In this document: positions 4,231 to 34,514 of the stretch, piece by piece
How positions within the stretch are numbered: position 1 is the first letter of the stretch
Layout: every line of letters starts with the position of its first letter
Source: Oscillospiraceae bacterium
Lineage (GTDB): Bacteria > Bacillota > Clostridia > Oscillospirales > Ruminococcaceae
Direction: 5' to 3'
Assembly: GCA_045633415.1 (NCBI GenBank)
Contig: JAZQYH010000001.1
Span: 938 to 64,937, forward strand
Length of the DNA: 64,000 nt
Notes under the pieces: generated by a model
Told to the model about the DNA's origin: nothing
The model's input: only the letters and a program-made list of their open reading frames with translations
Databases searched by the model: none
Program-made: the position numbers and the translations under genes

Positions 4231-5784
4231 ATGTCATCAGCTGAATGTAGATTCTGTGGCAGTGAAATCACAGGCGAAATCTGTGAATGGTGTGGTTTTC
4301 CACTGGATTCCCATCAGGAACTGGCAGGTGTGTTGCCATATGGTACAGATTTGAATGGATATGTTATAGGCGATGTAGTTGATATGGATGGCGAAAGTAC
4401 AACATATCAGGCTTACAACACTGCTACACAGACAAAAGTTCTGGTCAAGGAATTTTTACCTGTGTCCATGGTTGCACCACGAGCAGGTAATAATATTACT
4501 GTACAGCAGGGTAAAGAAGTTCTGTTTAAAAATCTGATGATGGACTTTACCGACCTTTATACTGCCCTTTCAAAAATTGAAAGCAAAAATATACAGAAGA
4601 TTTTTCGGATTTTCAGTGCCAACGGAACAGTATATGTTGTGATGGAAATGGTAAAAGGGGATAATCTTCGCCAGAATCTTATTAAACGTGGTAAGCCATA
4701 TACTTTTAAAGAAGCACGCTGGCTGTATCAGGAACTGTTTGAACTTCTTGAAATACTGGAGAAAAATAACATTGCCCATGGTGGTATCAGCGACGAAACT
4801 GTGCTGATTACACCGGATAATACAGTAGTGCTGACAAACTTTGCAATACGGGACCTTCGTGTTAAAAACGAGCATATAGTTTACAAACTGTACGACAATT
4901 TCTCTGCACCGGAACAGTACAGCCTTAACCGGTTTTCCGGTTTTTACACAGACATATACTCTGTGTCAGCTCTTTTCTACCATACAGTGACAGGTCGTCC
5001 ATTTATAGCTGAAAATCTGGCTTTAAAAGACCTTGCACGATATATGCCTAAGTATGCTATAGAAACTTTAAAATACGCTACAAAGCAAAATCCATTGGAT
5101 AGAATAGATAATATCGGCGACTTTGTGCTGATGCTGGATAATAAAGCCACAATAGCAAAACCAGAGAAGAAAAAGCAGGAAAAACATACTGAAAGTATGG
5201 ACCTTAACAAAAAGCTTACTTTGATTATAATTGCCCTTGTTATAGTGCTGTTTGCCGTAGGTATAATGGCGGTTTCATCCACAGCCGATTCTTCTTCATC
5301 CGGGGAGTCTTCATCAGTGGTTGAATCATTACCTGTTGTGGAAAAACTGGTTGTACCTGATTTGGTGGGAAAAAACTATAAAGATATAATGAATGACCCT
5401 GAAGTTGTAAATAATTTTTATATTTACACCACAGAAGAGTTTGCCAACCATCCGATAGGTCAGATTATCAGCCAGCAGCCACAGGCTAATATTTCTATTG
5501 AAAAAGGCGCATCTATTTACGTTACTATCAGTAAAGGTAAAGAAGTAATAAAAGTACAGGTGCCTTACGGTCTTGCAGGCAGACCGCTTGGAGAGGTAGA
5601 GGGATTGTTGAATACAATGGATATTCCGTTTGTTACAAAATATGTCCCACAGACTCGGCAGTATTCATTCGGCACAGTAACAGGCACAGATATTCCAGAA
5701 GGGGTAATGATAGACCCTGCTGAAACTTATATAATTGTTTATGTAGCTGATGATACACCTGTTGTGGAAATACCACAGAATTAA
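4231..5784 (+). CDS. Membrane protein: N-terminal zinc ribbon, degenerate Ser/Thr-kinase fold (pseudokinase), one TM helix, two PASTA-like extracellular repeats
   Basis: CRFCGSEITGEICEWCG forms CxxC...CxxC. VLVKEF and SAPEQ are retained, but HGGISDETV replaces HRDxKxxN and TNFA replaces DFG. TM helix is LTLIIIALVIVLFAVGIMAV. VVPDLVGKNYKDI...YVTISKG is PASTA-like. Confidence 0.7.
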   Translation: MSSAECRFCGSEITGEICEWCGFPLDSHQELAGVLPYGTDLNGYVIGDVVDMDGESTTYQAYNTATQTKVLVKEFLPVSMVAPRAGNNITVQQGKEVLFKNLMMDFTDLYTALSKIESKNIQKIFRIFSANGTVYVVMEMVKGDNLRQNLIKRGKPYTFKEARWLYQELFELLEILEKNNIAHGGISDETVLITPDNTVVLTNFAIRDLRVKNEHIVYKLYDNFSAPEQYSLNRFSGFYTDIYSVSALFYHTVTGRPFIAENLALKDLARYMPKYAIETLKYATKQNPLDRIDNIGDFVLMLDNKATIAKPEKKKQEKHTESMDLNKKLTLIIIALVIVLFAVGIMAVSSTADSSSSGESSSVVESLPVVEKLVVPDLVGKNYKDIMNDPEVVNNFYIYTTEEFANHPIGQIISQQPQANISIEKGASIYVTISKGKEVIKVQVPYGLAGRPLGEVEGLLNTMDIPFVTKYVPQTRQYSFGTVTGTDIPEGVMIDPAETYIIVYVADDTPVVEIPQN

Positions 5785-5891: not shown

Positions 5892-6761
5892 TTATTCAAC
5901 TTCCACCAGTTCATATTCTCTGCTGCCAAAGCCCAGAGCTGCAGAAGCTTCAATTGTGTAAACACCACGTCTGCTTTCGATTCTTTCCAGAAGATGTGCC
6001 TGACCAGGGTCGTCTGTAGCAGCATATACAAGGTCGATACATGCCTGGTCGATTGCGATAGGGTCTGTGGATACCAGAATACCGATGTCTTTCATACATG
6101 GGTCTTCAGCTTTTGCAACACAGTCACAGTCAACAGACATATTTTTCATAACGTTTACATATGCCGCATTTTCGCCAAAGTATTCCACTACACTGCCAGC
6201 GGCGTCAGCCATAGCTTCAAGGAATTTTGTTCTGTCCTGTGTCCAGATTTTTTCTGGTTCGCCAGCACCGTGGATGTATGCTTTGCCGAAGGAAGAACCA
6301 ATACCGATAGACAGCTGTTTCAGAGCGCCGCCATAGCCACCCATTGGATGACCTTTGAAATGGCTCAATACCAGCAGGCTGTCATAGTTTGCAAGATTTT
6401 TACCTACATAGTTTTTATCTATCTGTTTATAATTTTTTACTTCAAGTACCAAGTCTGGACCTTCTGCGTCCAGCAGGTCTACATCGTACATTTCGCTCCA
6501 GCCATGGTATTTAAACAGCTCCAGATGCTTTTCTGTAGTGTCACGCTGACCAGCATAAGCTGTGTTACATTCTACGATAGTACCGCCTGTAACATCAATC
6601 AGTGGTTTCCAGAAATCAGGACCAAGGAAGTTCTGGTTGCCTTTTTCACCACTGTGAACTTTCAGTGCTACTTTGCCAGGCAGCTCTTTGCCGAGAAGTT
6701 TATATAATTCCAATACTTTTTCAGGTGTAATAGTTCTGCTGAAATATACTTTTGGTTTCAT
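5892..6761 (-). CDS. DUF362 domain protein
   Basis: 289 aa starting MKPKVYFSRTITPEKVLELYKLL...KVHSGEKGN, with SHFKGHPMGGYGGALKQLSIG and a CDC motif. Recognised from memory as DUF362-like. SD is AAGGAG. Confidence 0.6.
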   Translation of the reverse strand: MKPKVYFSRTITPEKVLELYKLLGKELPGKVALKVHSGEKGNQNFLGPDFWKPLIDVTGGTIVECNTAYAGQRDTTEKHLELFKYHGWSEMYDVDLLDAEGPDLVLEVKNYKQIDKNYVGKNLANYDSLLVLSHFKGHPMGGYGGALKQLSIGIGSSFGKAYIHGAGEPEKIWTQDRTKFLEAMADAAGSVVEYFGENAAYVNVMKNMSVDCDCVAKAEDPCMKDIGILVSTDPIAIDQACIDLVYAATDDPGQAHLLERIESRRGVYTIEASAALGFGSREYELVEVE

Positions 6762-8751: not shown

Positions 8752-9030
8752 TTACAGAGCGATGATCATTGTGCGCAGAAGACCTTCTGTGATCTTGAAC
8801 ACACGACCAAGTTCTGCTGGGAAAGCAGCTTCACATTCAAATGTGAACAGAACATAATAACCTTCTGTTTCTTTGTTGATCATGTAAGCAAGTTTCTTTT
8901 TGCCCCATTCGTCAACAGAAACAAGAGTACCGTTAGCTGAGATAAGGTTTGAGAATTTTTCTACAAGACCTTTGATAGCTTCTTCATCCTGTTTTGTGCT
9001 GATAACAACCATTGATTCGTATTTCTGCAT
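8752..9030 (-). CDS. rpsF: 30S ribosomal protein S6
   Basis: 92 aa starting MQKYESMVVIS, with LAYMINKETEGYYVLFTFE. It holds the operon position before ssb and rpsR. Confidence 0.95.
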   Translation of the reverse strand: MQKYESMVVISTKQDEEAIKGLVEKFSNLISANGTLVSVDEWGKKKLAYMINKETEGYYVLFTFECEAAFPAELGRVFKITEGLLRTMIIAL

Positions 9031-9137
9031 GATTATTTACCTCCTTGTGGACTATAATGGCCCTGCCCCTCTGGCAGAGCAAGGATTGCTGTTTTTACAG
9101 CAAGAATAATTATATCAACAAAACCCCTTTAAGTCAA
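9031..9137 (-). promoter_or_regulatory. Promoter and structured leader of rpsF-ssb-rpsR (candidate autoregulatory leader)
   Basis: On the minus strand, TTGACT (9137-9132), 17 nt, TATAAT (9114-9109). In the roughly 70-nt leader, CCUUG (9084-9080) can pair with the CAAGG of the SD (9047-9043) around an inner CUGCC/GGCAG hairpin. Confidence 0.4.
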
Positions 9138-9202: not shown

Positions 9203-10126
9203 TTATAATGAGAAAATTGACATCATGTAGTAAATTGCAAAAAGAACAACTACAACTTTGCCTATTTTGCTTGGGCCAGCCTGCTCCAGAATACTGCGGT
9301 AGTATCTGTCCAGATTTTCGCCAGCATCTGATTTCATCTTTTTCAGACGTTTCACAGTGTCTGCTCTGTACATTGGTATAGCGAGGAAACCCCATACAAT
9401 ACCCACAGCCAGTACCAGTGTGGATGTGATAGCTGCCACTGTTTCAATACCAGGGAACAGCAGAGGGGAGCTTGCGCTGATAGCACCCATATTTGCGGCA
9501 AGAATAAAGAATGATGGCAGATTAAGCACAAAGTTGATTACAGCAGCAAGAATAGCATGTTTCCACAGCTTTCTGAACAGAAGCCAGATTGGTGGGAACA
9601 AGCAAGCAGCCCAGTTAAATGGTTTGTATTTAGGGTCCTGCCGCATTCTTTTGAATTTATAGATGTAGTATTGTGCATTCTGACCGATAAATACTGCAAT
9701 ATCTCTGTAAGAAATACCATCAATTTCGCCAGCCAGTTCTCTGTCTACCCGGGCTTTAAATTCTTCCTGACTCATTGTGTAGGCATTAGGAAACTGGTGC
9801 ACTTCCATTCTGCCACCTGGAACAGAATATACCTGTGTAGTTGGATCATTGGTTTTAAGTGCATGACCACAGTTTTCGCAGAACAGAGCGTCCTGTGGCA
9901 TAATGCTGTGACAGTCTGGACATTCGATGCTGCCTGCAGGAATTTCTTTTGCAGGTGCCTGCCATTCATAGCCTTCTTCATGTCTGATTTCGTTCACACA
10001 GTGACCCAATTCACGCCAGCATTCTCTGTGGTGTGGTGTGCCACAATCAGGGCAAACAACAATATCACTGTCTTTATCAAATGGTTTGCCGCATATGTCG
10101 CAAACCAGACCTTCAAATTTAAACAT
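9203..10126 (-). CDS. Membrane protein with an N-terminal RING/PHD-like cross-brace zinc finger, a second zinc ribbon and a DUF2628-like TM domain
   Basis: Start chosen at MFKFEG (AGGAG 7 nt upstream). Finger is CDICG-x12-CPDCGTPHHRECW-x4-HC. Second ribbon is CPDC-x11-CENCG. C-terminal TM helices follow (FNWAACLFPPIWLLF...). Confidence 0.75.
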   Translation of the reverse strand: MFKFEGLVCDICGKPFDKDSDIVVCPDCGTPHHRECWRELGHCVNEIRHEEGYEWQAPAKEIPAGSIECPDCHSIMPQDALFCENCGHALKTNDPTTQVYSVPGGRMEVHQFPNAYTMSQEEFKARVDRELAGEIDGISYRDIAVFIGQNAQYYIYKFKRMRQDPKYKPFNWAACLFPPIWLLFRKLWKHAILAAVINFVLNLPSFFILAANMGAISASSPLLFPGIETVAAITSTLVLAVGIVWGFLAIPMYRADTVKRLKKMKSDAGENLDRYYRSILEQAGPSKIGKVVVVLFAIYYMMSIFSL

Positions 10127-28918: not shown

Positions 28919-28946
28919 TTGACATTTTTCGATGGCTGGCTATAAT
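28919..28946 (+). promoter_or_regulatory. SigmaA-type promoter of T-box leader 1
   Basis: TTGACA (28919-24), 16 nt, TATAAT (28941-46). Confidence 0.7.
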
Positions 28947-28952
28947 GAAATC

Positions 28953-29244
28953 AATGGCAATGACGATAAACTAGTAGAAAGCAAGGCTGTCATTCAGAGA
29001 GTCCTCGGATGGTGAAATGAGGATATGTTCAGTAGCTTTTGAATTCCTTATCCAGCTGACTGGTGAAATCTTTGTGATGTGTAGCCGGCTCCGGTACCGC
29101 CCGTTACAGCGGAGGGTATTAATCTGTACACCACAGCCGATACCTGTCAAGGTCAGTTTTGTGAGAAGCTGATGAATAGAGGTGGTAACACGGGATTTAT
29201 ACATCTCGTCCTCTGATTGATTAATCAGGGGACGGGATTTTTTG
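28953..29244 (+). promoter_or_regulatory. T-box riboswitch leader 1, specifier UUC (Phe, tentative)
   Basis: Has the GA motif TGACGA, S-turn AGTA/GAA, AGAGAG bulge and GGTGAAAT distal loop. The specifier loop GAA-TTC-C places TTC at 29044-46. T-box sequence is AATAGAGGTGGTAACACGGG (29175-94). Terminator is 29205-29244 plus a T-run. Confidence 0.85.
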
Positions 29245-29297
29245 TTTTTATTCCCCCTCTGAAATCAAAAAATACCAAAAGAGAGAGGCAAAAACAA

Positions 29298-30266
29298 ATG
29301 AAAAAACTTTTAGCATTAGTATTGGCAATGGCAATGACACTTTCACTTACAGCCTGTGGCAGTGACACAGAACAGGACAGCGAAGGAAAAATCAAAATAG
29401 GTATTCTTCAGCAACTGGAGCATTCATCCCTTGACCAGTCCAGAGAAGGCTTTATACAGGCACTGGCAGATAACGGTTATGTAGATGGTGAAAATATTAT
29501 TATCGACTACCAGAATGCACAGTCAGACCAATCCAATCTTTCAAATATGGCAGACAGACTTGTAAGTAATAAATCAGAACTTATTCTTGCCATTGCAACA
29601 GGTGCGGCGCAGACAGTAGCAGGCAAAACATCGGATATTCCAGTTTTTATCACAGCAGTTACAGACCCTGTGGATGCAGGTGTTGTAAACAGTATGGAAA
29701 AACCAGGCACAAACGTTTCCGGTACATCTGATGCCTCCCCGATGAAAGCACAGCTGGAACTACTTCTTCAGCTTAAATATGGTATAAAAACAGTTGGCCT
29801 TCTTTATACATCCAGCGAAGATAACTCCATTCTTCAGATAAGTCAGGCAAAAGCACTTCTTGACGATATGAATGTGAAATATACAGAACAGACTGTTACC
29901 AACTCCAACGATGTACAGCAGGCAGTACAGTCTCTTGTAAATAAATGTGATGCTATCTACATCCCTACAGACAATGTTCTGGCTTCTTCAATGGCACTTG
30001 TAGCAGATATTACATGGCAGGCAGGTATACCAGTAGTTACAGGCGCTGAAAGTATGGTAACAGACGGAGGTCTTGCAACTATTGGTCTTTCTTACTACAA
30101 CCTTGGTTATCAGACAGGGGAAATGGCAGTCAAAGTCCTGGAAGGTGCAGATATATCCACAATGCCTGTGGAAACACAGAAAGAATATAGCTATATTGTA
30201 AACGGTGATGCAGTAGCTGCAATGAACATCACTCTTCCACAGGAATTAGCACAGTATGTGCAGTAA
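29298..30266 (+). CDS. ABC transporter substrate-binding lipoprotein (ABC_sub_bind / TrpX family), paralogue 1
   Basis: Start trimmed to MKKLLALVLAMAMTLSLTACGS (lipobox). Has IKIGILQQLEHSSLDQSREGF and AIATGAAQ. The track's N-terminal extension runs through the T-box terminator. Confidence 0.85.
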   Translation: MKKLLALVLAMAMTLSLTACGSDTEQDSEGKIKIGILQQLEHSSLDQSREGFIQALADNGYVDGENIIIDYQNAQSDQSNLSNMADRLVSNKSELILAIATGAAQTVAGKTSDIPVFITAVTDPVDAGVVNSMEKPGTNVSGTSDASPMKAQLELLLQLKYGIKTVGLLYTSSEDNSILQISQAKALLDDMNVKYTEQTVTNSNDVQQAVQSLVNKCDAIYIPTDNVLASSMALVADITWQAGIPVVTGAESMVTDGGLATIGLSYYNLGYQTGEMAVKVLEGADISTMPVETQKEYSYIVNGDAVAAMNITLPQELAQYVQ

Positions 30267-30434
30267 GCTGTAACACAGCTGTCAGACGGATTTATGGGCC
30301 GGCAATAGTTGAATGTACGATATAGTATGGAGAGAGAAGAGCTATTGTAAAGTTGAGATTTTTGTAGGAAATGTACAAAAATTTTCAACGACGGCCCTTA
30401 AATTATGTAAATTAACAAAAAACCAAACTTGATA

Positions 30435-30462
30435 TTGACAAATAATTATCGATTGATATAAT
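30435..30462 (+). promoter_or_regulatory. SigmaA-type promoter of T-box leader 2
   Basis: TTGACA (30435-40), 16 nt, TATAAT (30457-62). Confidence 0.7.
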
Positions 30463-30468
30463 CAAAAT

Positions 30469-30765
30469 ATAACAGCTATGACGATAAACCAGTAAAAAGC
30501 AAGGTACACATTCAGAGAGCTCCCGGTTGCTGAAAGCGGAGTATGTTTACAGCTTTTGAATACATTATCCAGCTGACCGGTGAAGGCCTTTGCAGGTTGT
30601 GTAGTCGGCTCCGGGGTCGCCCGTTACAGCGAATGGTATTAACTTGTTCACCACAGGCGATACCTGCCGAGGTCGGTTTTGTGAAAAGCCGATAAATAGA
30701 GGTGGTAACACGGGATTTATTTATCTCGTCCTCTGATTTTATTAATCAGGGGACGGGATTTTTTA
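30469..30765 (+). promoter_or_regulatory. T-box riboswitch leader 2, specifier UAC (Tyr)
   Basis: Same architecture as leader 1. The specifier loop GAA-TAC-A places TAC at 30561-63, followed by the conserved purine. T-box sequence is 30695-30714. Terminator is 30725-30765. Confidence 0.88.
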
Positions 30766-30847
30766 TTTGTCGCAAAAGTGGCCACAGCGAATTTAAAAAA
30801 TCTTACCTCTGAAAACGGCACAAATTTAATCTAAAGAGGTAAAGAAA

Positions 30848-31831
30848 ATGAAAAAACTTACAGCATTATTACTCACATTGGTTATGGCGCTTTCACTTAC
30901 AGCATGCGGCGGCAACGCAGCGAATTCAGATGGCGAAGAAAAAATAAAAATCGGTGTTCTTCAGCAACTTGAACACGTTGCACTTGACCAGGCAAGAGAA
31001 GGCTTTATACAGGCACTGGAAGACAACGGCTTTAAAGACGGCGAAAATATGGTGCTGGATATTCAGAATGCACAGGCAGACCAGTCCAACCTGCAGACTA
31101 TGGCTGACAGATTGGTAAACGAGGGAAATGATGTTATCCTTGCCATTGCAACAGGTGCAGCGCAGACAGTAGCTGGCAAAACAAAAGACATTCCTATTCT
31201 TATTACAGCGGTTACAGACCCTGTGGATGCAGGTCTTGTAAACAGTATGGAAAACCCAGGGACAAATGTTTCGGGTACATCAGACGCTTCCCCGATGGAA
31301 GAACAGATAGATTTAATGCTTACACTTTGTCCACAAGTAAAAACAGTAGGTGTTCTCTACACCTCCAGCGAAGATAACTCAGTTCTTCAGGTTTCACAGC
31401 TTAAACCTATACTTAAAGCAAAAAATCTGAAAATAGTTGAACAGACGGTTACTAATTCCAACGATGTACAGCAGGCGGCACAGTCACTGGTAACTAAATG
31501 CGACGCTATCTACATTCCTACAGACAATGTTCTTGCTTCTTCAATAGCACTGGTTGCCAGCGAAGCAAACAACGCAAAAATACCGGTTATATGCGGTGAA
31601 TCAGGTCAGGTTACAGGCGGCGGCTTTGCAACAATCGGCATTGACTACTTTAATCTTGGCTACCAGACAGGCGAAATGGCTATTCGTATTCTGAATGGTG
31701 AAGATGTTTCTGCTATGGCGGTGGAAACACAGAAAGATTTTGCATACACAATCAACGGTGATGTGGCAGATATTCTGGGCATCACAATACCAGACAATCT
31801 TCAGGAGTTCGTAATCAAAACTGCTGAATAG
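30848..31831 (+). CDS. ABC transporter substrate-binding lipoprotein (ABC_sub_bind / TrpX family), paralogue 2
   Basis: 327 aa starting MKKLTALLLTLVMALSLTACGG (lipobox). Colinear with and highly similar to paralogue 1. Confidence 0.88.
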   Translation: MKKLTALLLTLVMALSLTACGGNAANSDGEEKIKIGVLQQLEHVALDQAREGFIQALEDNGFKDGENMVLDIQNAQADQSNLQTMADRLVNEGNDVILAIATGAAQTVAGKTKDIPILITAVTDPVDAGLVNSMENPGTNVSGTSDASPMEEQIDLMLTLCPQVKTVGVLYTSSEDNSVLQVSQLKPILKAKNLKIVEQTVTNSNDVQQAAQSLVTKCDAIYIPTDNVLASSIALVASEANNAKIPVICGESGQVTGGGFATIGIDYFNLGYQTGEMAIRILNGEDVSAMAVETQKDFAYTINGDVADILGITIPDNLQEFVIKTAE

Positions 31832-31864
31832 TCGAAATATATATAATTCAGGAGTATATCAGAA

Positions 31865-32791
31865 ATGTTAAACGTAATCACAGGCGCAATTTCATTAGGT
31901 TTATTATGGTCAGTTACAGCTTTGGGCGTATACCTTACATTCCGTATGCTGGACTTTGCAGATATGACAGTTGACGGCAGTATCGTTACAGGTGCCGCTA
32001 TTGTTGCCACTCTGCTGAAAAACGGTATCACAAATCCATTGGTGGCTACACTGCTGGCTTTTGTTGGTGGTATGGTTGCCGGTGCTGTTACAGGCATTCT
32101 CCATACTAAACTGAAAATACCTGCTATTCTTTCTGGTATACTTACACAGATAGGTCTTTATTCAGTCAATATTAAAATCATGGGTAGTGCCAACGTTAAC
32201 CTGCTTAAAGTAGACACTCTGTTTGACATTATTCCTATCTCTAAAAATGCTGTTCTTATAGGCGGTGGTGTTTCCGCCATAGCTCTGGTAGCTATCCTTT
32301 ATGCATTCCTTACTACATCTCTTGGCAGTGCATTGCGTGCTACAGGTAACAACGAAAAAATGGCAAATGCAATGGGCATCAATACAGACAACATGAAAAT
32401 CATGGGTCTAGCATTGGGTAACGGTCTTGTGGCGCTTTCAGGTGCACTTATTGCACAGAGTCAGCAGTACTCCGATATGGGTATGGGTCAGGGCTCTATC
32501 GTTATAGGTCTTGCCAGCATATTCATTGGTGAAGTTCTGTGGCAGCGCAGAAGCATCCTTGGCAAACTGTCAGCAGTTGTTGTTGGTGCTGTAACATACA
32601 GAGTAATTATCGCTCTGGTTATTGATATGGGTATGGACCCACTCAATCTCAAACTGTTCACAGCTATCACAGTTACATTGGCACTTTCAATGCCAAGAAT
32701 CAGATGTTTTGCAGTTTCAAAAATCAAATCATTGAAAAAATCTGTAAAACACCCAGTAAAAATCAGAGAGAAGAAGGAAACAACAGTATGA
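31865..32791 (+). CDS. ABC transporter permease (TrpY-like, COG4120 type)
   Basis: 308 aa polytopic protein starting MLNVITGAISLGLLWSVTALGVYLTFRMLDFADMTVDGS. Confidence 0.85.
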   Translation: MLNVITGAISLGLLWSVTALGVYLTFRMLDFADMTVDGSIVTGAAIVATLLKNGITNPLVATLLAFVGGMVAGAVTGILHTKLKIPAILSGILTQIGLYSVNIKIMGSANVNLLKVDTLFDIIPISKNAVLIGGGVSAIALVAILYAFLTTSLGSALRATGNNEKMANAMGINTDNMKIMGLALGNGLVALSGALIAQSQQYSDMGMGQGSIVIGLASIFIGEVLWQRRSILGKLSAVVVGAVTYRVIIALVIDMGMDPLNLKLFTAITVTLALSMPRIRCFAVSKIKSLKKSVKHPVKIREKKETTV

Positions 32792-33591
32792 TACCGGCAC
32801 TTGTAGTAAAAGGAATAGAAAAGACCTTCAATCCAGGTACAATTACAGAAAACTATGTTTTGAAAGGTGTGGACCTTGTACTTGAAGAAGGAGATTATGT
32901 TACAGTCATCGGTGGTAACGGTGCAGGTAAATCCACATTGCTCAACTCCATCGCAGGCACTTACCCTGTAGATGAAGGGCAGATTTTTATCAAAGATGCG
33001 GAAGTTACCCATCTGCCTGAACACAAACGTGCGCACCATCTTGGTCGTGTGTTTCAGGACCCTATGGTAGGCACAGCGGCTGGCATGACAATAGCAGAAA
33101 ATCTTTCCCTTGCACTCCACCGAGGCGAAAAACGTGGTCTTGGTAAAGCTATCACACAGACAGAAAGAGAATTATTCTACAACGAACTTAAACAACTGGA
33201 CCTTGACCTCGAAAACAGACTGGATGATGTTATCGGCTTATTGTCTGGCGGTCAGAGACAGGCTATAACACTGCTGATGGCTACAATCAAAAAACCTGAC
33301 CTATTGCTTCTGGATGAACACACAGCGGCGCTGGACCCTAAAACAGCAGAAAAGGTTTTACAGCTTACAGATAATATAATAAAAGAAAACAATCTTACCA
33401 CTTTGATGATTACACACAATATGCGTGATGCCATAAACCACGGCAACCGCCTTATTATGATGAACAATGGTAAAATTGTGTTTGATGTAAAAGGTGAAGA
33501 AAAGAAAAATCTTACAGTAGAAATCCTGCTGGAAAAATTTACACAGTCATATTCACAGGGCGTATTATCAGACAGATTGGTCCTTGGATAA
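32788..33591 (+). CDS. ABC transporter ATP-binding protein (TrpZ-like, COG1101 type)
   Basis: The ATG overlaps the permease stop (ATGA). Walker A is GGNGAGKST, the signature is LSGGQRQ and Walker B is LLLLDEHT. Confidence 0.9.
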   Translation: MIPALVVKGIEKTFNPGTITENYVLKGVDLVLEEGDYVTVIGGNGAGKSTLLNSIAGTYPVDEGQIFIKDAEVTHLPEHKRAHHLGRVFQDPMVGTAAGMTIAENLSLALHRGEKRGLGKAITQTERELFYNELKQLDLDLENRLDDVIGLLSGGQRQAITLLMATIKKPDLLLLDEHTAALDPKTAEKVLQLTDNIIKENNLTTLMITHNMRDAINHGNRLIMMNNGKIVFDVKGEEKKNLTVEILLEKFTQSYSQGVLSDRLVLG

Positions 33592-33613
33592 AATATACTT
33601 CTGAAAAGCAATC

Positions 33614-33638
33614 AAGCCGGCCAGCCACCGGCTTTTTT
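33614..33638 (+). terminator. Intrinsic terminator of the ABC operon
   Basis: AAGCCGG-ccagcca-CCGGCTT followed by TTTT. Confidence 0.8.
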
Positions 33639-33663
33639 GCTGAAAAATTTTTTCAAAAAAGTG

Positions 33664-33951: not shown

Positions 33952-33954
33952 GGA

Positions 33955-33983
33955 AAAGCACCCAAGTAATTGGGTGCTTTTTG
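33955..33983 (+). terminator. Intrinsic terminator after the tRNA-Ser pair
   Basis: AAGCACCCA-agtaa-TTGGGTGCTT followed by TTT. Confidence 0.8.
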
Positions 33984-34244
33984 CTTTTCTCAAAGGGATT
34001 TTAACCCGGGAGGGTTTCGCCGTGAAGAAAACAGTGTGGTACACTGTTTTCAGGCGAAAGAGCCGAGCGCACCAAGCGAGGCCAGATAGTATTTGCCGAA
34101 GGCAAAGACGGCAAATCAGCCCTGAAAAGTTTTTGTCGCGCACGGCGACGGGCTAAAGCCCCTCTTGTTCGCTCGTAACTTTCCCTTCCTCCGCCTTCCT
34201 TCATCTGCCACTGGCAGCGGTCGGCTCCGTCACCCAATCTCCGC

Positions 34245-34256
34245 CAAGAAAAAGAG
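34245..34256 (+). repeat. Second copy of the tRNA-Ser(GCU) 3' end (CAATCTCCGCCA), followed by its own terminator hairpin (34261-34292)
   Basis: Exact 12-nt match to 33940-33951, with similar flanks (gaaaag after each copy). Hairpin is GAGCTATCACAtaTGTGATAGTTC followed by TTTTT. Confidence 0.7.
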
Positions 34257-34514
34257 CTATCACATATGTGATAGTTCTTTTTCATTTGTATGTAAAAGTT
34301 AAGTAGGATTTGAGCCTGCAAGAGTTTCGGGCATATAAATCACCTGTGCAACTGATTTGTACATCTATCTGCCACTATATTTTTCTTGACAATTTTGTAT
34401 TTATAATATTATTATAATGTATATATAATAAAGGCTGTGGAAAATTGTTTTTTTAAATAAAAACAACGTTCCACATCTTAAGGTTTGTAAATTGAGAACA
34501 GGAAGGGGTTCTAT

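What the first reader, a model, noticed from the sequence alone, without database searches (positions are those of the whole stretch)
28919..33591. Two tandem T-box leaders with different specifier codons (UUC / UAC) gate paralogous binding proteins that share one permease/ATPase
Two roughly 290-nt leaders (28953-29244 and 30469-30765) are clear paralogues. They share the GA motif, AGTA/GAA S-turn, AGAGAG bulge, an identical T-box AATAGAGGTGGTAACACGGG and near-identical terminators. Each has its own TTGACA-16-TATAAT promoter. In the specifier loop they differ exactly at the codon: GAA-TTC-C (29044-46) versus GAA-TAC-A (30561-63). The UGGU bulge fits an A73 discriminator, which both tRNA-Phe and tRNA-Tyr carry. 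Each leader precedes a TrpX-family (ABC_sub_bind) lipoprotein. The two proteins look roughly three-quarters identical by eye. Only the second is followed by the permease and ATPase. This family is known as a T-box-controlled tryptophan importer (trpXYZ). Here it appears to have been duplicated and retargeted to Phe and Tyr. Transcripts started at leader 1 must also pass leader 2 to reach the permease, which makes a built-in two-input logic.
Basis: partly seen in the sequence, partly recalled or inferred. Interest (0 to 1): 0.62.

Follow-up and report, generated by a model that had tools for sequence, protein, structure and literature searches.

The report
Phe- and Tyr-sensing T-boxes gate one importer
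A gut Oscillospiraceae bacterium has an aromatic amino-acid ABC importer with two alternative binding proteins, one behind a phenylalanine-tRNA-sensing T-box leader and one behind a tyrosine-tRNA-sensing T-box leader; this is a tidy new arrangement of well-known parts, not a new mechanism.

Summary
Two full-length T-box leaders are at the stated coordinates. Rfam RF00230 gives 95 bits for leader 2 and 87.7 bits for leader 1, which is just under the gathering score of 93. Each has a 12/12 sigma-70 promoter and an intrinsic terminator that overlaps its antiterminator. They are 84% identical and differ at the specifier: GAA-UUC-C versus GAA-UAC-A. In 20 related leaders the helices on both sides of the specifier loop covary, which fixes the reading register. 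The UUC-then-UAC order is conserved in syntenic Oscillospiraceae genomes.

The proteins agree independently. Their closest solved relative is the tyrosine binder CD0873 of C. difficile, not TrpX. Every UAC-gated protein keeps the Glu that bonds the tyrosine hydroxyl. UUC-gated proteins usually carry Ala there, as in the Phe-binding VC_1101. All carry the Tyr that excludes tryptophan.

"Retargeted from a Trp importer" is not supported. The two proteins are 67% identical, not about 75%.

The "two-input logic" is only inferred. P2 feeds the permease on its own, so the Tyr leader gates the translocator and the Phe leader can only add to it. No canonical terminator lies between the units, but a conserved structured spacer does.

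Verdict: a new variant of a known kind, of moderate interest.

The parts
28919..28946 (+). Promoter P1 (TTGACA-16-TATAAT)
   Evidence: 12/12 consensus match. A near-consensus promoter lies at the same place before leader 1 in L001, L002, L004, L006, L007, L011, L086-L090.
28951..29245 (+). Leader 1, a T-box riboswitch with specifier UUC (Phe). K-turn AUGA 28960-63. Lower Stem I helix 28965-69 with 29048-52. S-turn AGUA 28973-76 and GAA 29041-43. Codon UUC 29044-46 followed by C 29047. AG bulge 28996-29001. T-box bulge UGGUAAC 29183-89 (UGGU 29183-86). Antiterminator 3' strands 29205-13. Terminator 29203-29238 plus U-tract.
   Evidence: RF00230 at 87.7 bits, E 3.6e-19, model 1-219, below gathering score 93. 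Terminator. Covariation of the flanking helices. Coordinates.
29298..30266 (+). SBP1, a 322-aa PF04392 lipoprotein (lipobox LTAC). Predicted Phe-preferring receptor; Ala250 sits at the CD0873 Glu-263 position.
   Evidence: Pfam 263.9 bits. TrpX HMM 335.5, below cutoff 390. PDB hits 6HNI, 3LFT, 3LKV. Ungapped alignment of the pocket segment. Specificity rule from PMC6816091.
30288..30412 (+). Conserved structured spacer, a predicted three-way junction. Outer stem GGAUUUAUGGGCCGG with CCGGCCCUUAAAUU, two inner hairpins, and conserved UAUAGAGAGAGAAGAG and UGUAAAG. Function unknown. It lies on any P1 read-through transcript.
   Evidence: Fold z-score -3.98. Same fold in 7 relatives. RNAalifold gives 36 pairs, 11 with compensatory changes. 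No Rfam family at E<=0.01. No hairpin-plus-U terminator here.
30435..30462 (+). Promoter P2 (TTGACA-16-TATAAT, with TG upstream of the -10)
   Evidence: 12/12 match. Conserved before leader 2 in L002, L004, L006, L007, L011, L086, L088, L089. Absent in L001 and L090.
30469..30765 (+). Leader 2, a T-box riboswitch with specifier UAC (Tyr). GAA 30558-60, UAC 30561-63, A 30564. T-box sequence 30695-30714 (UGGU 30703-06). Terminator 30723-30759 plus U-tract.
   Evidence: RF00230 at 95.0 bits, gathering score 93. Terminator. Covariation. Coordinates.
30848..31831 (+). SBP2, a 327-aa PF04392 lipoprotein. Predicted Tyr receptor; it keeps Glu at the CD0873 Glu-263 position (motif PVICGESG) and Tyr at the 279 position.
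   Evidence: Pfam 297.4 bits. TrpX HMM 346.1, below 390. Alignment.
31865..32791 (+). Permease (BPD_transp_2, 308 aa)
   Evidence: PF02653 at 85 bits. Same position in all syntenic loci.
32788..33591 (+). ABC ATPase (267 aa). Its start overlaps the permease stop in ATGA.
   Evidence: PF00005 at 95.6 bits. ATGA overlap seen directly. The orthologues are also 267 aa.
33614..33640 (+). Terminator at the end of the operon
   Evidence: GC-rich hairpin AAGCCGGCCAGCCACCGGCTT followed by TTTTTG.

Best explanation
This is an aromatic amino-acid ABC importer with two alternative receptors. Each receptor is switched on by starvation for its own amino acid, through its own T-box transcription attenuator.

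Unit A is P1, then leader 1, then SBP1. Leader 1 presents UUC to the anticodon of tRNA-Phe and UGGU to the 3' ACCA end. Uncharged tRNA-Phe holds the antiterminator in place (29179-29213) and blocks formation of the terminator (29203-29238), so SBP1 is made.

Unit B is P2, then leader 2, then SBP2, the permease and the ATPase. It works the same way with UAC and tRNA-Tyr.

SBP2 keeps the Glu that bonds the tyrosine hydroxyl, so it most likely delivers Tyr. SBP1 has Ala there, so it most likely delivers Phe. Both would dock on the single permease/ATPase.

The translocator is therefore gated by the Tyr leader. The Phe leader controls only how much of its receptor is made. If P1 transcripts run through the spacer, they add to Unit B only when leader 2 is also open.

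Shown here: the RNA anatomy, the reading register, conservation across relatives, and the match between codon and pocket residue. Inferred: which tRNA each leader responds to, which ligand each protein binds, that the two proteins share the translocator, and that read-through occurs.
For: - Rfam T-box matches over the full model for both leaders.
- Promoters and terminators. The terminator's 5' arm overlaps the antiterminator's 3' strands.
- On 20 related leaders the named Stem I structure is 88.9% paired. 17 of 21 pairs change on both sides. No shuffle out of 500 reaches the observed values, and sliding the partners drops pairing to 39-48%.
- The helix that abuts the codon is 100% paired, with all 5 pairs compensatory (GAUAA/UUAUC, AAAGA/UCUUU, AAGGA/UCCUU, AGGGG/CCCCU, GAGGA/UCCUC, GCGGA/UCCGC). 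This fixes the 3' side of the loop as GAA-NNN-N.
- UUC comes first and UAC second in every syntenic two-leader locus: L001, L002, L004, L006, L007, L011, L086, L088, L089, L090.
- The base after UUC is C in most relatives but A in L086, L012, L014, L015 and L018, while UUC itself stays constant.
- UGGU implies A73. The window's tRNA-Trp and tRNA-Ser end in G73 and its tRNA-Thr in U73.
- UUC and UAC are the specifiers of 99% of Phe and Tyr T-boxes in TBDB (PMC7778990).
- CD0873 (Tyr), VC_1101 (Phe) and SP1069 (Trp) are the solved relatives. Their specificity residues are Glu-263 versus Ala, and Tyr-279 versus Gln (PMC6816091).
- All UAC-gated proteins have Glu at that position. The first protein after a UUC leader has Ala in 12 distinct sequences, Phe in the L001/L090 type, and Glu in two exceptions.
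- L087, L012 and L013 have a UUC leader followed directly by an Ala-type SBP, a permease and an ATPase. A Phe-gated complete importer of this family therefore exists.
Against: - Leader 1 scores below Rfam's gathering score.
- The base after UUC is C rather than the usual purine.
- Two relatives break the residue rule. L018 has a UUC leader before a Glu-type SBP. L015 has UAC and UUC leaders before one Glu-type SBP. The Glu/Ala position is therefore not a strict predictor, and the proteins may bind both amino acids.
- SBP1 has a Glu at the next position (Glu251).
- Under Phe starvation alone the design raises a receptor without raising its translocator. That works only if basal translocator levels are enough.
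- No tRNA-Phe or tRNA-Tyr gene of this organism could be examined.
- No usable RNA-seq data exist. Only low-identity metatranscriptome contigs of relatives were found.
Confidence: 0.72

Rival explanations
1. Both binding proteins take both Phe and Tyr. The two leaders then only make one broad aromatic importer respond to shortage of either amino acid. The Glu/Ala difference would tune affinity but would not separate the ligands.
For: - L018 pairs a UUC leader with a Glu-type SBP.
- L015 puts UAC and UUC leaders before a single Glu-type SBP.
- L016 (UAC) and L018 (UUC) proteins are 80% identical and both have Glu.
- In L001 and L090 the second leader has lost its promoter and terminator, so a Glu-type SBP sits under the Phe leader alone.
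- Phe and Tyr differ by one hydroxyl.
Against: - In three of four independent Phe/Tyr contrasts the residue changes together with the codon: the window clade, the L011 pair, and L009 against L010/L012/L013.
- CD0873, with Glu-263, was stabilised by Tyr alone among the 20 amino acids (PMC6816091).
- Keeping two paralogues at only 67% identity argues that their roles have diverged.
Confidence: 0.2
2. The two units are insulated from each other. P1 transcripts end or are processed at the conserved structured spacer (30288-30412). No transcript then passes both leaders and there is no combinatorial logic. SBP1 would simply use whatever translocator Unit B supplies.
For: - The spacer folds far better than shuffled sequence (z -3.98). 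Its three-way junction is conserved with compensatory changes in 7 relatives.
- P2 is a perfect promoter and is conserved, which suggests Unit B does not rely on upstream transcription.
Against: - The element is not followed by a U-tract. Its 3' UUAAAUU is paired within the outer stem, and the terminator scan finds nothing between 30267 and 30434.
- Metatranscriptome contigs of relatives run from about 30324 into leader 2 (records 4, 11 and 25). These could be DNA carry-over.
Confidence: 0.35
3. The specifier is read in another register. At -1 the codons are AUU and AUA, both Ile. At +1 they are UCC and ACA, Ser and Thr. The leaders would then not sense Phe and Tyr.
For: - The base after UUC is C, not the usual purine.
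- The -1 reading would make both leaders Ile.
- UCC and UCA, the +1 readings in relatives, are both Ser.
Against: - Covariation fixes a 7-nt 3' loop, GAA-NNN-N, directly against the lower helix. This is the canonical layout.
- Relatives have UUC-A, with the canonical purine.
- The Ser and Thr tRNAs in the window have G73 and U73, but the T-box bulge needs A73.
- The gated proteins belong to an aromatic amino-acid binding family, and their pocket residue tracks UAC versus UUC.
- The one consistent difference between the paralogous leaders would be synonymous under the -1 reading.
Confidence: 0.04

Closest known systems
T-box riboswitch of B. subtilis tyrS, and the Grundy & Henkin UAC-to-UUC specifier switch
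   Same: Same class of transcriptional attenuator: long Stem I with K-turn, S-turn and specifier loop, Stem II, IIA/B and III, a UGGN bulge, and competing antiterminator and terminator. The natural difference between leaders 1 and 2 is the same single-base change, UAC versus UUC, that switched tyrS from Tyr to Phe control in the laboratory (cited in PMC2494555). Natural Tyr-to-Phe T-box divergence after duplication has been described for the B. cereus group (same paper).
   Different: Here the pair controls transport receptors rather than a tRNA synthetase. Both versions sit in one locus, and most Phe copies have C rather than a purine after the codon.
TrpXYZ, the T-box(Trp)-controlled tryptophan ABC importer (S. 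suis, S. pneumoniae SP1069/3LFT)
   Same: Same Pfam family of binding protein (PF04392), the same permease and ATPase families, the same gene order of SBP, permease and ATPase, and T-box control (PMC9382623).
   Different: The specifier is UGG there. The window proteins score below the TrpX equivalog cutoff and have Tyr where the Trp binder has Gln-284. The window has two receptors and two leaders.
C. difficile CD0873 (6HNI), the tyrosine-binding lipoprotein of an ABC importer, and its paralogue CD0876
   Same: Closest solved relative (E 4.9e-77, 46-50% identity). SBP2 shares Glu-263 and Tyr-279. C. difficile also carries neighbouring paralogous SBPs about 70% identical.
   Different: No T-box reaches the Rfam gathering score in the C. 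difficile locus (L061). The paralogues there are proposed to share Tyr specificity rather than split Phe and Tyr.
argT-hisJQMP of Salmonella and E. coli: two paralogous binding proteins, LAO and HisJ, that share one translocator (my own knowledge, not checked here)
   Same: Two tandem paralogous receptors about 70% identical. Each has its own promoter. Only the second is co-transcribed with the membrane and ATPase subunits. The receptors differ in ligand preference.
   Different: Regulation there is by protein factors (nitrogen control), not by two tRNA-sensing RNAs.
Tandem T-boxes (trp operon, thrS/thrZ) and tandem riboswitch logic gates
   Same: Successive attenuators on one transcript can multiply their effects (PMC12452182, PMC7583486).
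   Different: Described tandem T-boxes are contiguous and are treated as sensing the same tRNA. In the window a gene and a second promoter separate the leaders. A truly contiguous UAC-plus-UUC pair exists only in the relative L015.

Membership tests
T-box leader (Rfam RF00230) | Covariance-model score at or above the gathering score (93 bits) over the full model | tested here: met
   Leader 2 scores 95.0 bits over model 1-219. Leader 1 scores 87.7 bits, E 3.6e-19, also over 1-219, which is below the gathering score. Leader 1 is accepted because it is paralogous to leader 2 (84% identity) and shows the features in the rows below.
T-box leader (Rfam RF00230) | Stem I with K-turn, specifier loop with S-turn (AGUA and GAA), and the codon at the 3' side next to the lower helix | tested here: met
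   Named structure on 20 leaders: 88.9% paired, 17 of 21 pairs with changes on both sides, 0 of 500 shuffles as high, slid controls 39-48% paired. The 3' loop is GAA-UUC-C or GAA-UAC-A.
T-box leader (Rfam RF00230) | T-box bulge UGGN within an antiterminator that competes with an intrinsic terminator | tested here: met
   UGGUAAC bulge at 29183-89 and 30703-09. Antiterminator 3' strands at 29205-13 lie inside the terminator 5' arm 29203-18. Terminators have 16 pairs plus a U-tract.
T-box leader (Rfam RF00230) | Antitermination induced by the cognate uncharged tRNA | not testable with these tools
   Needs in vitro transcription or reporter assays. No suitable RNA-seq data were found.
TrpX tryptophan-binding protein (NCBIfam NF041285, equivalog) | HMM score at or above the curated cutoff of 390 bits | tested here: not met
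   SBP1 scores 335.5 and SBP2 346.1.
TrpX tryptophan-binding protein (NCBIfam NF041285, equivalog) | Gln at the SP1069 Gln-284 position, which makes room for the indole and bonds it | tested here: not met
   Both proteins and all their Oscillospiraceae relatives have Tyr there. Rule from PMC6816091.
TrpX tryptophan-binding protein (NCBIfam NF041285, equivalog) | T-box with a UGG specifier upstream | tested here: not met
   The specifiers are UUC and UAC. UGG leaders were seen only in Desulfitobacterium loci L035 and L054.
PF04392 aromatic amino-acid binding proteins (CD0873, VC_1101, SP1069) | Pfam ABC_sub_bind domain over the full length, and sequence similarity to the solved aromatic amino-acid binders | tested here: met
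   263.9 and 297.4 bits against a cutoff of 25.9. 6HNI E 4.9e-77, 3LFT 1.9e-58, 3LKV 1e-51.
PF04392 aromatic amino-acid binding proteins (CD0873, VC_1101, SP1069) | Tyr-specific signature: Glu at CD0873 position 263 plus Tyr at 279 | tested here: met
   SBP2 has both (PVICGESG, GIDYF). SBP1 has Ala250 plus Tyr, which is the VC_1101 Phe-type signature. The segment between the invariant Pro and Val has no gaps.
PF04392 aromatic amino-acid binding proteins (CD0873, VC_1101, SP1069) | Measured binding of Phe or Tyr | not testable with these tools
   Needs DSF or ITC on purified protein.
Multi-receptor ABC importer (argT-hisJQMP type) | Two or more paralogous receptors and one set of membrane and ATPase genes in the locus | tested here: met
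   Two SBPs, one permease and one ATPase in the window. Relatives have 1, 2 or 3 SBPs with one translocator. Docking of both receptors on the translocator was not testable.
Contiguous tandem T-boxes | Two complete T-box leaders in series with no gene between them | tested here: not met
   In the window SBP1 and promoter P2 lie between the leaders. The feature is met only in relative L015, at 752-1022 (UAC) and 1244-1517 (UUC). Even there each copy has its own promoter.

The most novel reading that the evidence does not exclude
In this Oscillospiraceae clade the RNA sensor and the protein pocket may have switched specificity together, more than once. The sensor change is UAC to or from UUC, one base. 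The pocket change is Glu to or from Ala at the residue that contacts the tyrosine hydroxyl. That would give a natural series of matched switch pairs.

The window type would also encode a hierarchy: the Tyr leader gates the translocator and the Phe leader gates only a receptor. The relative L015 carries contiguous T-boxes for two different tRNAs. On transcripts that start at the upstream promoter these would act as a true two-tRNA AND gate.

The conserved three-way-junction RNA in the spacer would be a new element that sets how strongly the two units are coupled.
Probability: 0.3. Interest if true: 0.6.

Novelty: new variant of a known kind. Interest (0 to 1): 0.4.

Why it matters
- **A predicted importer.** It points to a Phe/Tyr importer in abundant but uncultured gut Oscillospiraceae. 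It also suggests how they ration a shared translocator between two very similar amino acids.
- **A natural specificity pair.** The two leaders are 84% identical and must tell tRNA-Phe from tRNA-Tyr. Those tRNAs have anticodons that differ by one base and share A73, yet belong to different structural classes. The pair is a ready-made test case for T-box specificity and for the role of the base after the codon.
- **A testable annotation rule.** The link between the specifier and the Glu/Ala pocket residue could be used to annotate the large PF04392 family, if it holds up.
- **No new mechanism.** All the parts are already known.

Tried and rejected
- **RNA evidence.** Only DNA gut metagenomes and four RNA or RNA-labelled (metatranscriptome-type) runs held related sequence, at no more than 14% of sampled words. 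When laid on the window, contigs pile up on the leaders and thin out over the ORFs, and three contigs run from about 30324 into leader 2. They come from relatives at 85-95% identity, have no strand, and may include DNA, so I treat them as a hint only.
- **tRNA-Phe and tRNA-Tyr of the organism.** Neither is in the window or in 19 related loci. The A73 argument therefore rests on general knowledge.
- **Vitreschak 2008 (PMC2271356).** The paper is not held. Searches for tyrXYZ and COG2984 gave nothing useful.
- **A T-box in C. difficile.** No T-box reaches the Rfam gathering score in the CD0873 locus, so that system is not a regulatory precedent.
- **My regex-based specifier caller.** It gave unreliable calls outside the clade (L016, L035, L054, L073). 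Those were replaced by Rfam alignments. L073 (GAA-G-UUC-U) stays ambiguous.
- **The spacer as an intrinsic terminator.** Rejected as a canonical one, because there is no free U-tract.
- **Spacer motif elsewhere.** A metagenome scan found one more copy, in the same context.
- **MFE folds of whole leaders.** These do not reproduce the T-box fold and were not used.

Full report
**1. What is in the sequence**

The region 28919-33640 holds two transcription units on the + strand.

Unit A:
- A 12/12 sigma-70 promoter at 28919-28946.
- A leader of about 295 nt.
- A 322-aa lipoprotein gene, SBP1, at 29298-30266.

Unit B:
- A second 12/12 promoter at 30435-30462.
- A second leader.
- A 327-aa lipoprotein gene, SBP2, at 30848-31831.
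- A BPD_transp_2 permease at 31865-32791.
- An ABC ATPase at 32788-33591, whose start overlaps the permease stop in ATGA.
- A terminator at 33614-33634.

Rfam's T-box model (RF00230) matches both leaders over its whole length. Leader 2 (30469-30736) scores 95.0 bits, above the gathering score of 93. Leader 1 (28951-29216) scores 87.7 bits, E 3.6e-19, just below it. The leaders are 84% identical. They share an identical T-box sequence (29175-29194 and 30695-30714) and identical terminator arms. In each leader the antiterminator's 3' strands lie inside the terminator's 5' arm, so the two structures exclude each other. The one numerical slip is protein identity, which is 67% rather than about 75%.

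**2. The reading register of the specifier**

I aligned 20 Stem I sequences from the window and from related Oscillospiraceae and Clostridia loci. I then counted pairs for the structure taken from the Rfam alignment.
- 88.9% of cells are paired, against 73% in shuffles and 39-48% when the partners are slid.
- 17 of 21 pairs show changes on both sides.
- No shuffle out of 500 reaches the observed values.
- The helix just below the specifier loop is 100% paired, and all five of its pairs are compensatory (GAUAA/UUAUC, AAAGA/UCUUU, AAGGA/UCCUU, AGGGG/CCCCU, GAGGA/UCCUC, GCGGA/UCCGC).
- The helix above the loop has compensatory changes in 5 of 6 pairs.

The 3' side of the loop is therefore exactly seven bases, GAA-NNN-N. 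This is the canonical layout: S-turn, then codon, then one base, then helix. The codon is UUC in leader 1 and UAC in leader 2.

The base after UUC is C in the window and most relatives. It is A, the usual purine, in L086 (whose SBP1 is 88% identical), L012, L014, L015 and L018. UUC itself never changes.

The bulge UGGU calls for an A73 discriminator. The window's own tRNA-Trp and both tRNA-Ser end in G73, and its tRNA-Thr ends in U73. This argues against the +1 reading (UCC/ACA) and against Trp. That bacterial tRNA-Phe and tRNA-Tyr carry A73 is established knowledge. I could not check it in this organism. UUC and UAC make up 99% of Phe and Tyr specifiers in TBDB (PMC7778990).

**3. Conservation and variation of the locus**

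The locus is syntenic in many ruminant and gut Oscillospiraceae MAGs. The order is PPDK on the minus strand, the importer locus, two tRNA-Ser genes, then gatCAB. Wherever two leaders are present, the UUC leader comes first and the UAC leader second. In most of these loci each has a near-consensus promoter.

The layout varies:
- L087 has a UUC leader, one SBP, the permease and the ATPase.
- The window, L004-L007, L088 and L089 have two SBPs. So does L086, but its second SBP gene is called in two pieces.
- L001, L002 and L090 have three SBPs, with two behind the UUC leader.
- In L001 and L090 the second leader has lost both its promoter and the 3' half of its terminator. The whole locus there is probably under the Phe leader.
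- More distant genomes have complete, separate operons of UUC leader, SBP, permease and ATPase (L012, L013). One of them also has a separate UAC-gated SBP and permease about 7 kb away on the same contig (L009).

**4. The proteins**

Both are PF04392 (ABC_sub_bind) lipoproteins. Both fall below NCBIfam's TrpX equivalog cutoff, at 335.5 and 346.1 against 390. The solved relatives are C. difficile CD0873 (6HNI, E 4.9e-77), S. pneumoniae SP1069 (3LFT) and V. cholerae VC_1101 (3LKV).

Bradshaw et al. (PMC6816091) showed that these bind Tyr, Trp and Phe respectively. They attribute specificity to two positions. Glu-263 of CD0873 bonds the tyrosine hydroxyl and is Ala in the Phe and Trp binders. Tyr-279 blocks tryptophan and is Gln in the Trp binder.

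The segment between an invariant Pro and Val aligns without gaps.
- SBP2 reads PVICGESGQV, with Glu at the 263 position.
- SBP1 reads PVVTGAESMV, with Ala there and a Glu one residue later.
- Both have Tyr at the 279 position.

Across the loci I collected, every UAC-gated protein has Glu. The first protein after a UUC leader has Ala in 12 distinct sequences and Phe in the L001/L090 type.

There are two exceptions. L018 has a UUC leader before a Glu-type protein. L015 has both leaders before one Glu-type protein. A neighbour-joining tree, not bootstrapped, places SBP1-type and SBP2-type proteins of the window clade as sisters. It makes the L011 pair sisters of each other, and puts L016 (UAC) next to L018 (UUC) at 80% identity. 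This suggests several independent Phe/Tyr switches, three of four accompanied by the Glu/Ala change.

This is independent support for Tyr and Phe as the ligands. It is not proof, and broad Phe-plus-Tyr binding remains possible.

**5. Mechanism and logic**

The best-supported reading is a two-receptor importer. The Phe leader controls the supply of SBP1. The Tyr leader controls SBP2 together with the only permease and ATPase.

Because P2 is a perfect and conserved promoter, translocator output is roughly f(Tyr) x (P2 + P1 x f(Phe)). The Tyr leader is the obligatory gate. Phe starvation can only amplify. Phe starvation alone raises a receptor without raising its translocator. That is workable if receptors are needed in excess and basal read-through supplies enough translocator. 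This last point is inference.

Whether P1 transcripts reach leader 2 at all is open. No hairpin-plus-U terminator lies between 30267 and 30434. The spacer does, however, hold a stable and conserved three-way-junction structure (z -3.98; 11 of 36 pairs compensatory in 7 relatives). It has no Rfam match. It could be a processing or stabilising element. Metatranscriptome contigs of relatives run from about 30324 into leader 2 and are denser over the leaders than over the ORFs. This fits attenuation and read-through, but the data are too weak to rely on.

**6. Comparison with what is known**

- T-box attenuation is a textbook mechanism.
- The natural UAC/UUC difference mirrors the classic laboratory switch of B. 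subtilis tyrS from Tyr to Phe control. It also mirrors the described Tyr-to-Phe T-box divergence in the B. cereus group (PMC2494555).
- T-box(Trp)-controlled TrpXYZ uses the same protein families (PMC9382623).
- CD0873 is a characterised Tyr receptor of the same family, but its locus has no T-box at the gathering score.
- Two paralogous receptors that share one translocator, each with its own promoter, is the argT-hisJQMP design (my own knowledge).
- In the 2008 survey of T-box-regulated transporters, Phe and Tyr T-boxes controlled NSS and NhaC carriers, and only Trp T-boxes controlled this kind of ABC system.
- Described tandem T-boxes are treated as sensing one tRNA.
- In the papers I could search, I found no description of two differently specified T-boxes that gate alternative receptors of one ABC translocator.

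I therefore rate this a new variant of a known kind. The idea that a Trp importer was retargeted is not supported. The clade is of the Tyr/Phe type, and the family already spans all three aromatic ligands.

**7. Verdict**

- Confidence in the Phe/Tyr dual-receptor importer is about 0.7.
- Interest is about 0.4. It is a neat natural specificity pair and an unusual regulatory layout, built entirely from familiar parts.

Noticed in passing
window 30288-30412 (also L004 ~8990-9110, L007 ~5005-5130, L002 ~10000-10120, L086, L088, L089, L091 80-205): A conserved structured RNA of about 120 nt lies between the SBP1 stop codon and promoter P2. It is predicted to form a three-way junction: an outer stem GGAUUUAUGGGCCGG with CCGGCCCUUAAAUU, and two inner hairpins. 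UAUAGAGAGAGAAGAG and UGUAAAG are invariant. Fold z-score is -3.98, and 11 of 36 pairs are compensatory in 7 sequences. It has no Rfam family and no free U-tract. Its function is unknown.
   Followed up: partly
L015 (JAUNBN010000045.1) 640-1625: An Oscillospiraceae MAG carries a tandem duplication of promoter plus T-box leader. The copies are about 90% identical, and identical through the promoter. There is no gene between them. The first copy has UAC and the second UUC, and both precede a single Glu-type SBP. These are contiguous T-boxes for two different tRNAs, and a snapshot of specifier switching after duplication.
   Followed up: partly
L001 9027-9382 and L090 ~6140-6440: In the three-SBP relatives the second (UAC) leader has no promoter in front, only a 48-nt spacer. 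The 3' arm and U-tract of its terminator are eroded. It looks like a relic, which leaves the whole locus under the Phe leader.
   Followed up: partly
window 33952-34514; L001 12734-12955; L002 14226-14444: L001 and L002 have a strong T-box (118-122 bits) in front of gatCAB. The window and L004 lack it (no hit at E<=1). They keep a similar promoter followed by a short hairpin leader, and they share an extra GC-rich stretch of roughly 300 nt after the second tRNA-Ser.
   Followed up: partly
window 29047 against 30564, and relatives: The base 3' of the specifier is C in most UUC leaders of this clade. It is A in every UAC leader and in some UUC leaders (L086, L012, L014, L015, L018). A pyrimidine at this normally purine position is unexplained.
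   Followed up: partly
window 29006-29020 against 30524-30538 (Stem I distal loop): The two leader types differ consistently in the distal loop: CGG(A/G)(U/C)GGUG in UUC leaders against CGGUUGCUG in most UAC leaders of the window clade (the L002 UAC leader has CGGAUGCUG). This might contribute to telling the tRNA-Phe elbow from the tRNA-Tyr elbow. It was not analysed further.
   Followed up: no
L086 5553-6530: In GCA_054281635.1 the SBP2 gene is called in two pieces, 37 aa and 260 aa. This is either a frameshift or pseudogene, or an assembly error.
   Followed up: no
L001 6885-7859 and L002 9005-9982: Extra SBP paralogues behind the UUC leader carry Phe or Ser, and the motif SVN, at the Glu-263 position. 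They may bind other ligands.
   Followed up: no
L016 3980-4054: There is an Rfam Gut-1 RNA hit (52.7 bits, gathering score 50) next to a tRNA-Ser, downstream of the importer in a Bacillota MAG.
   Followed up: no
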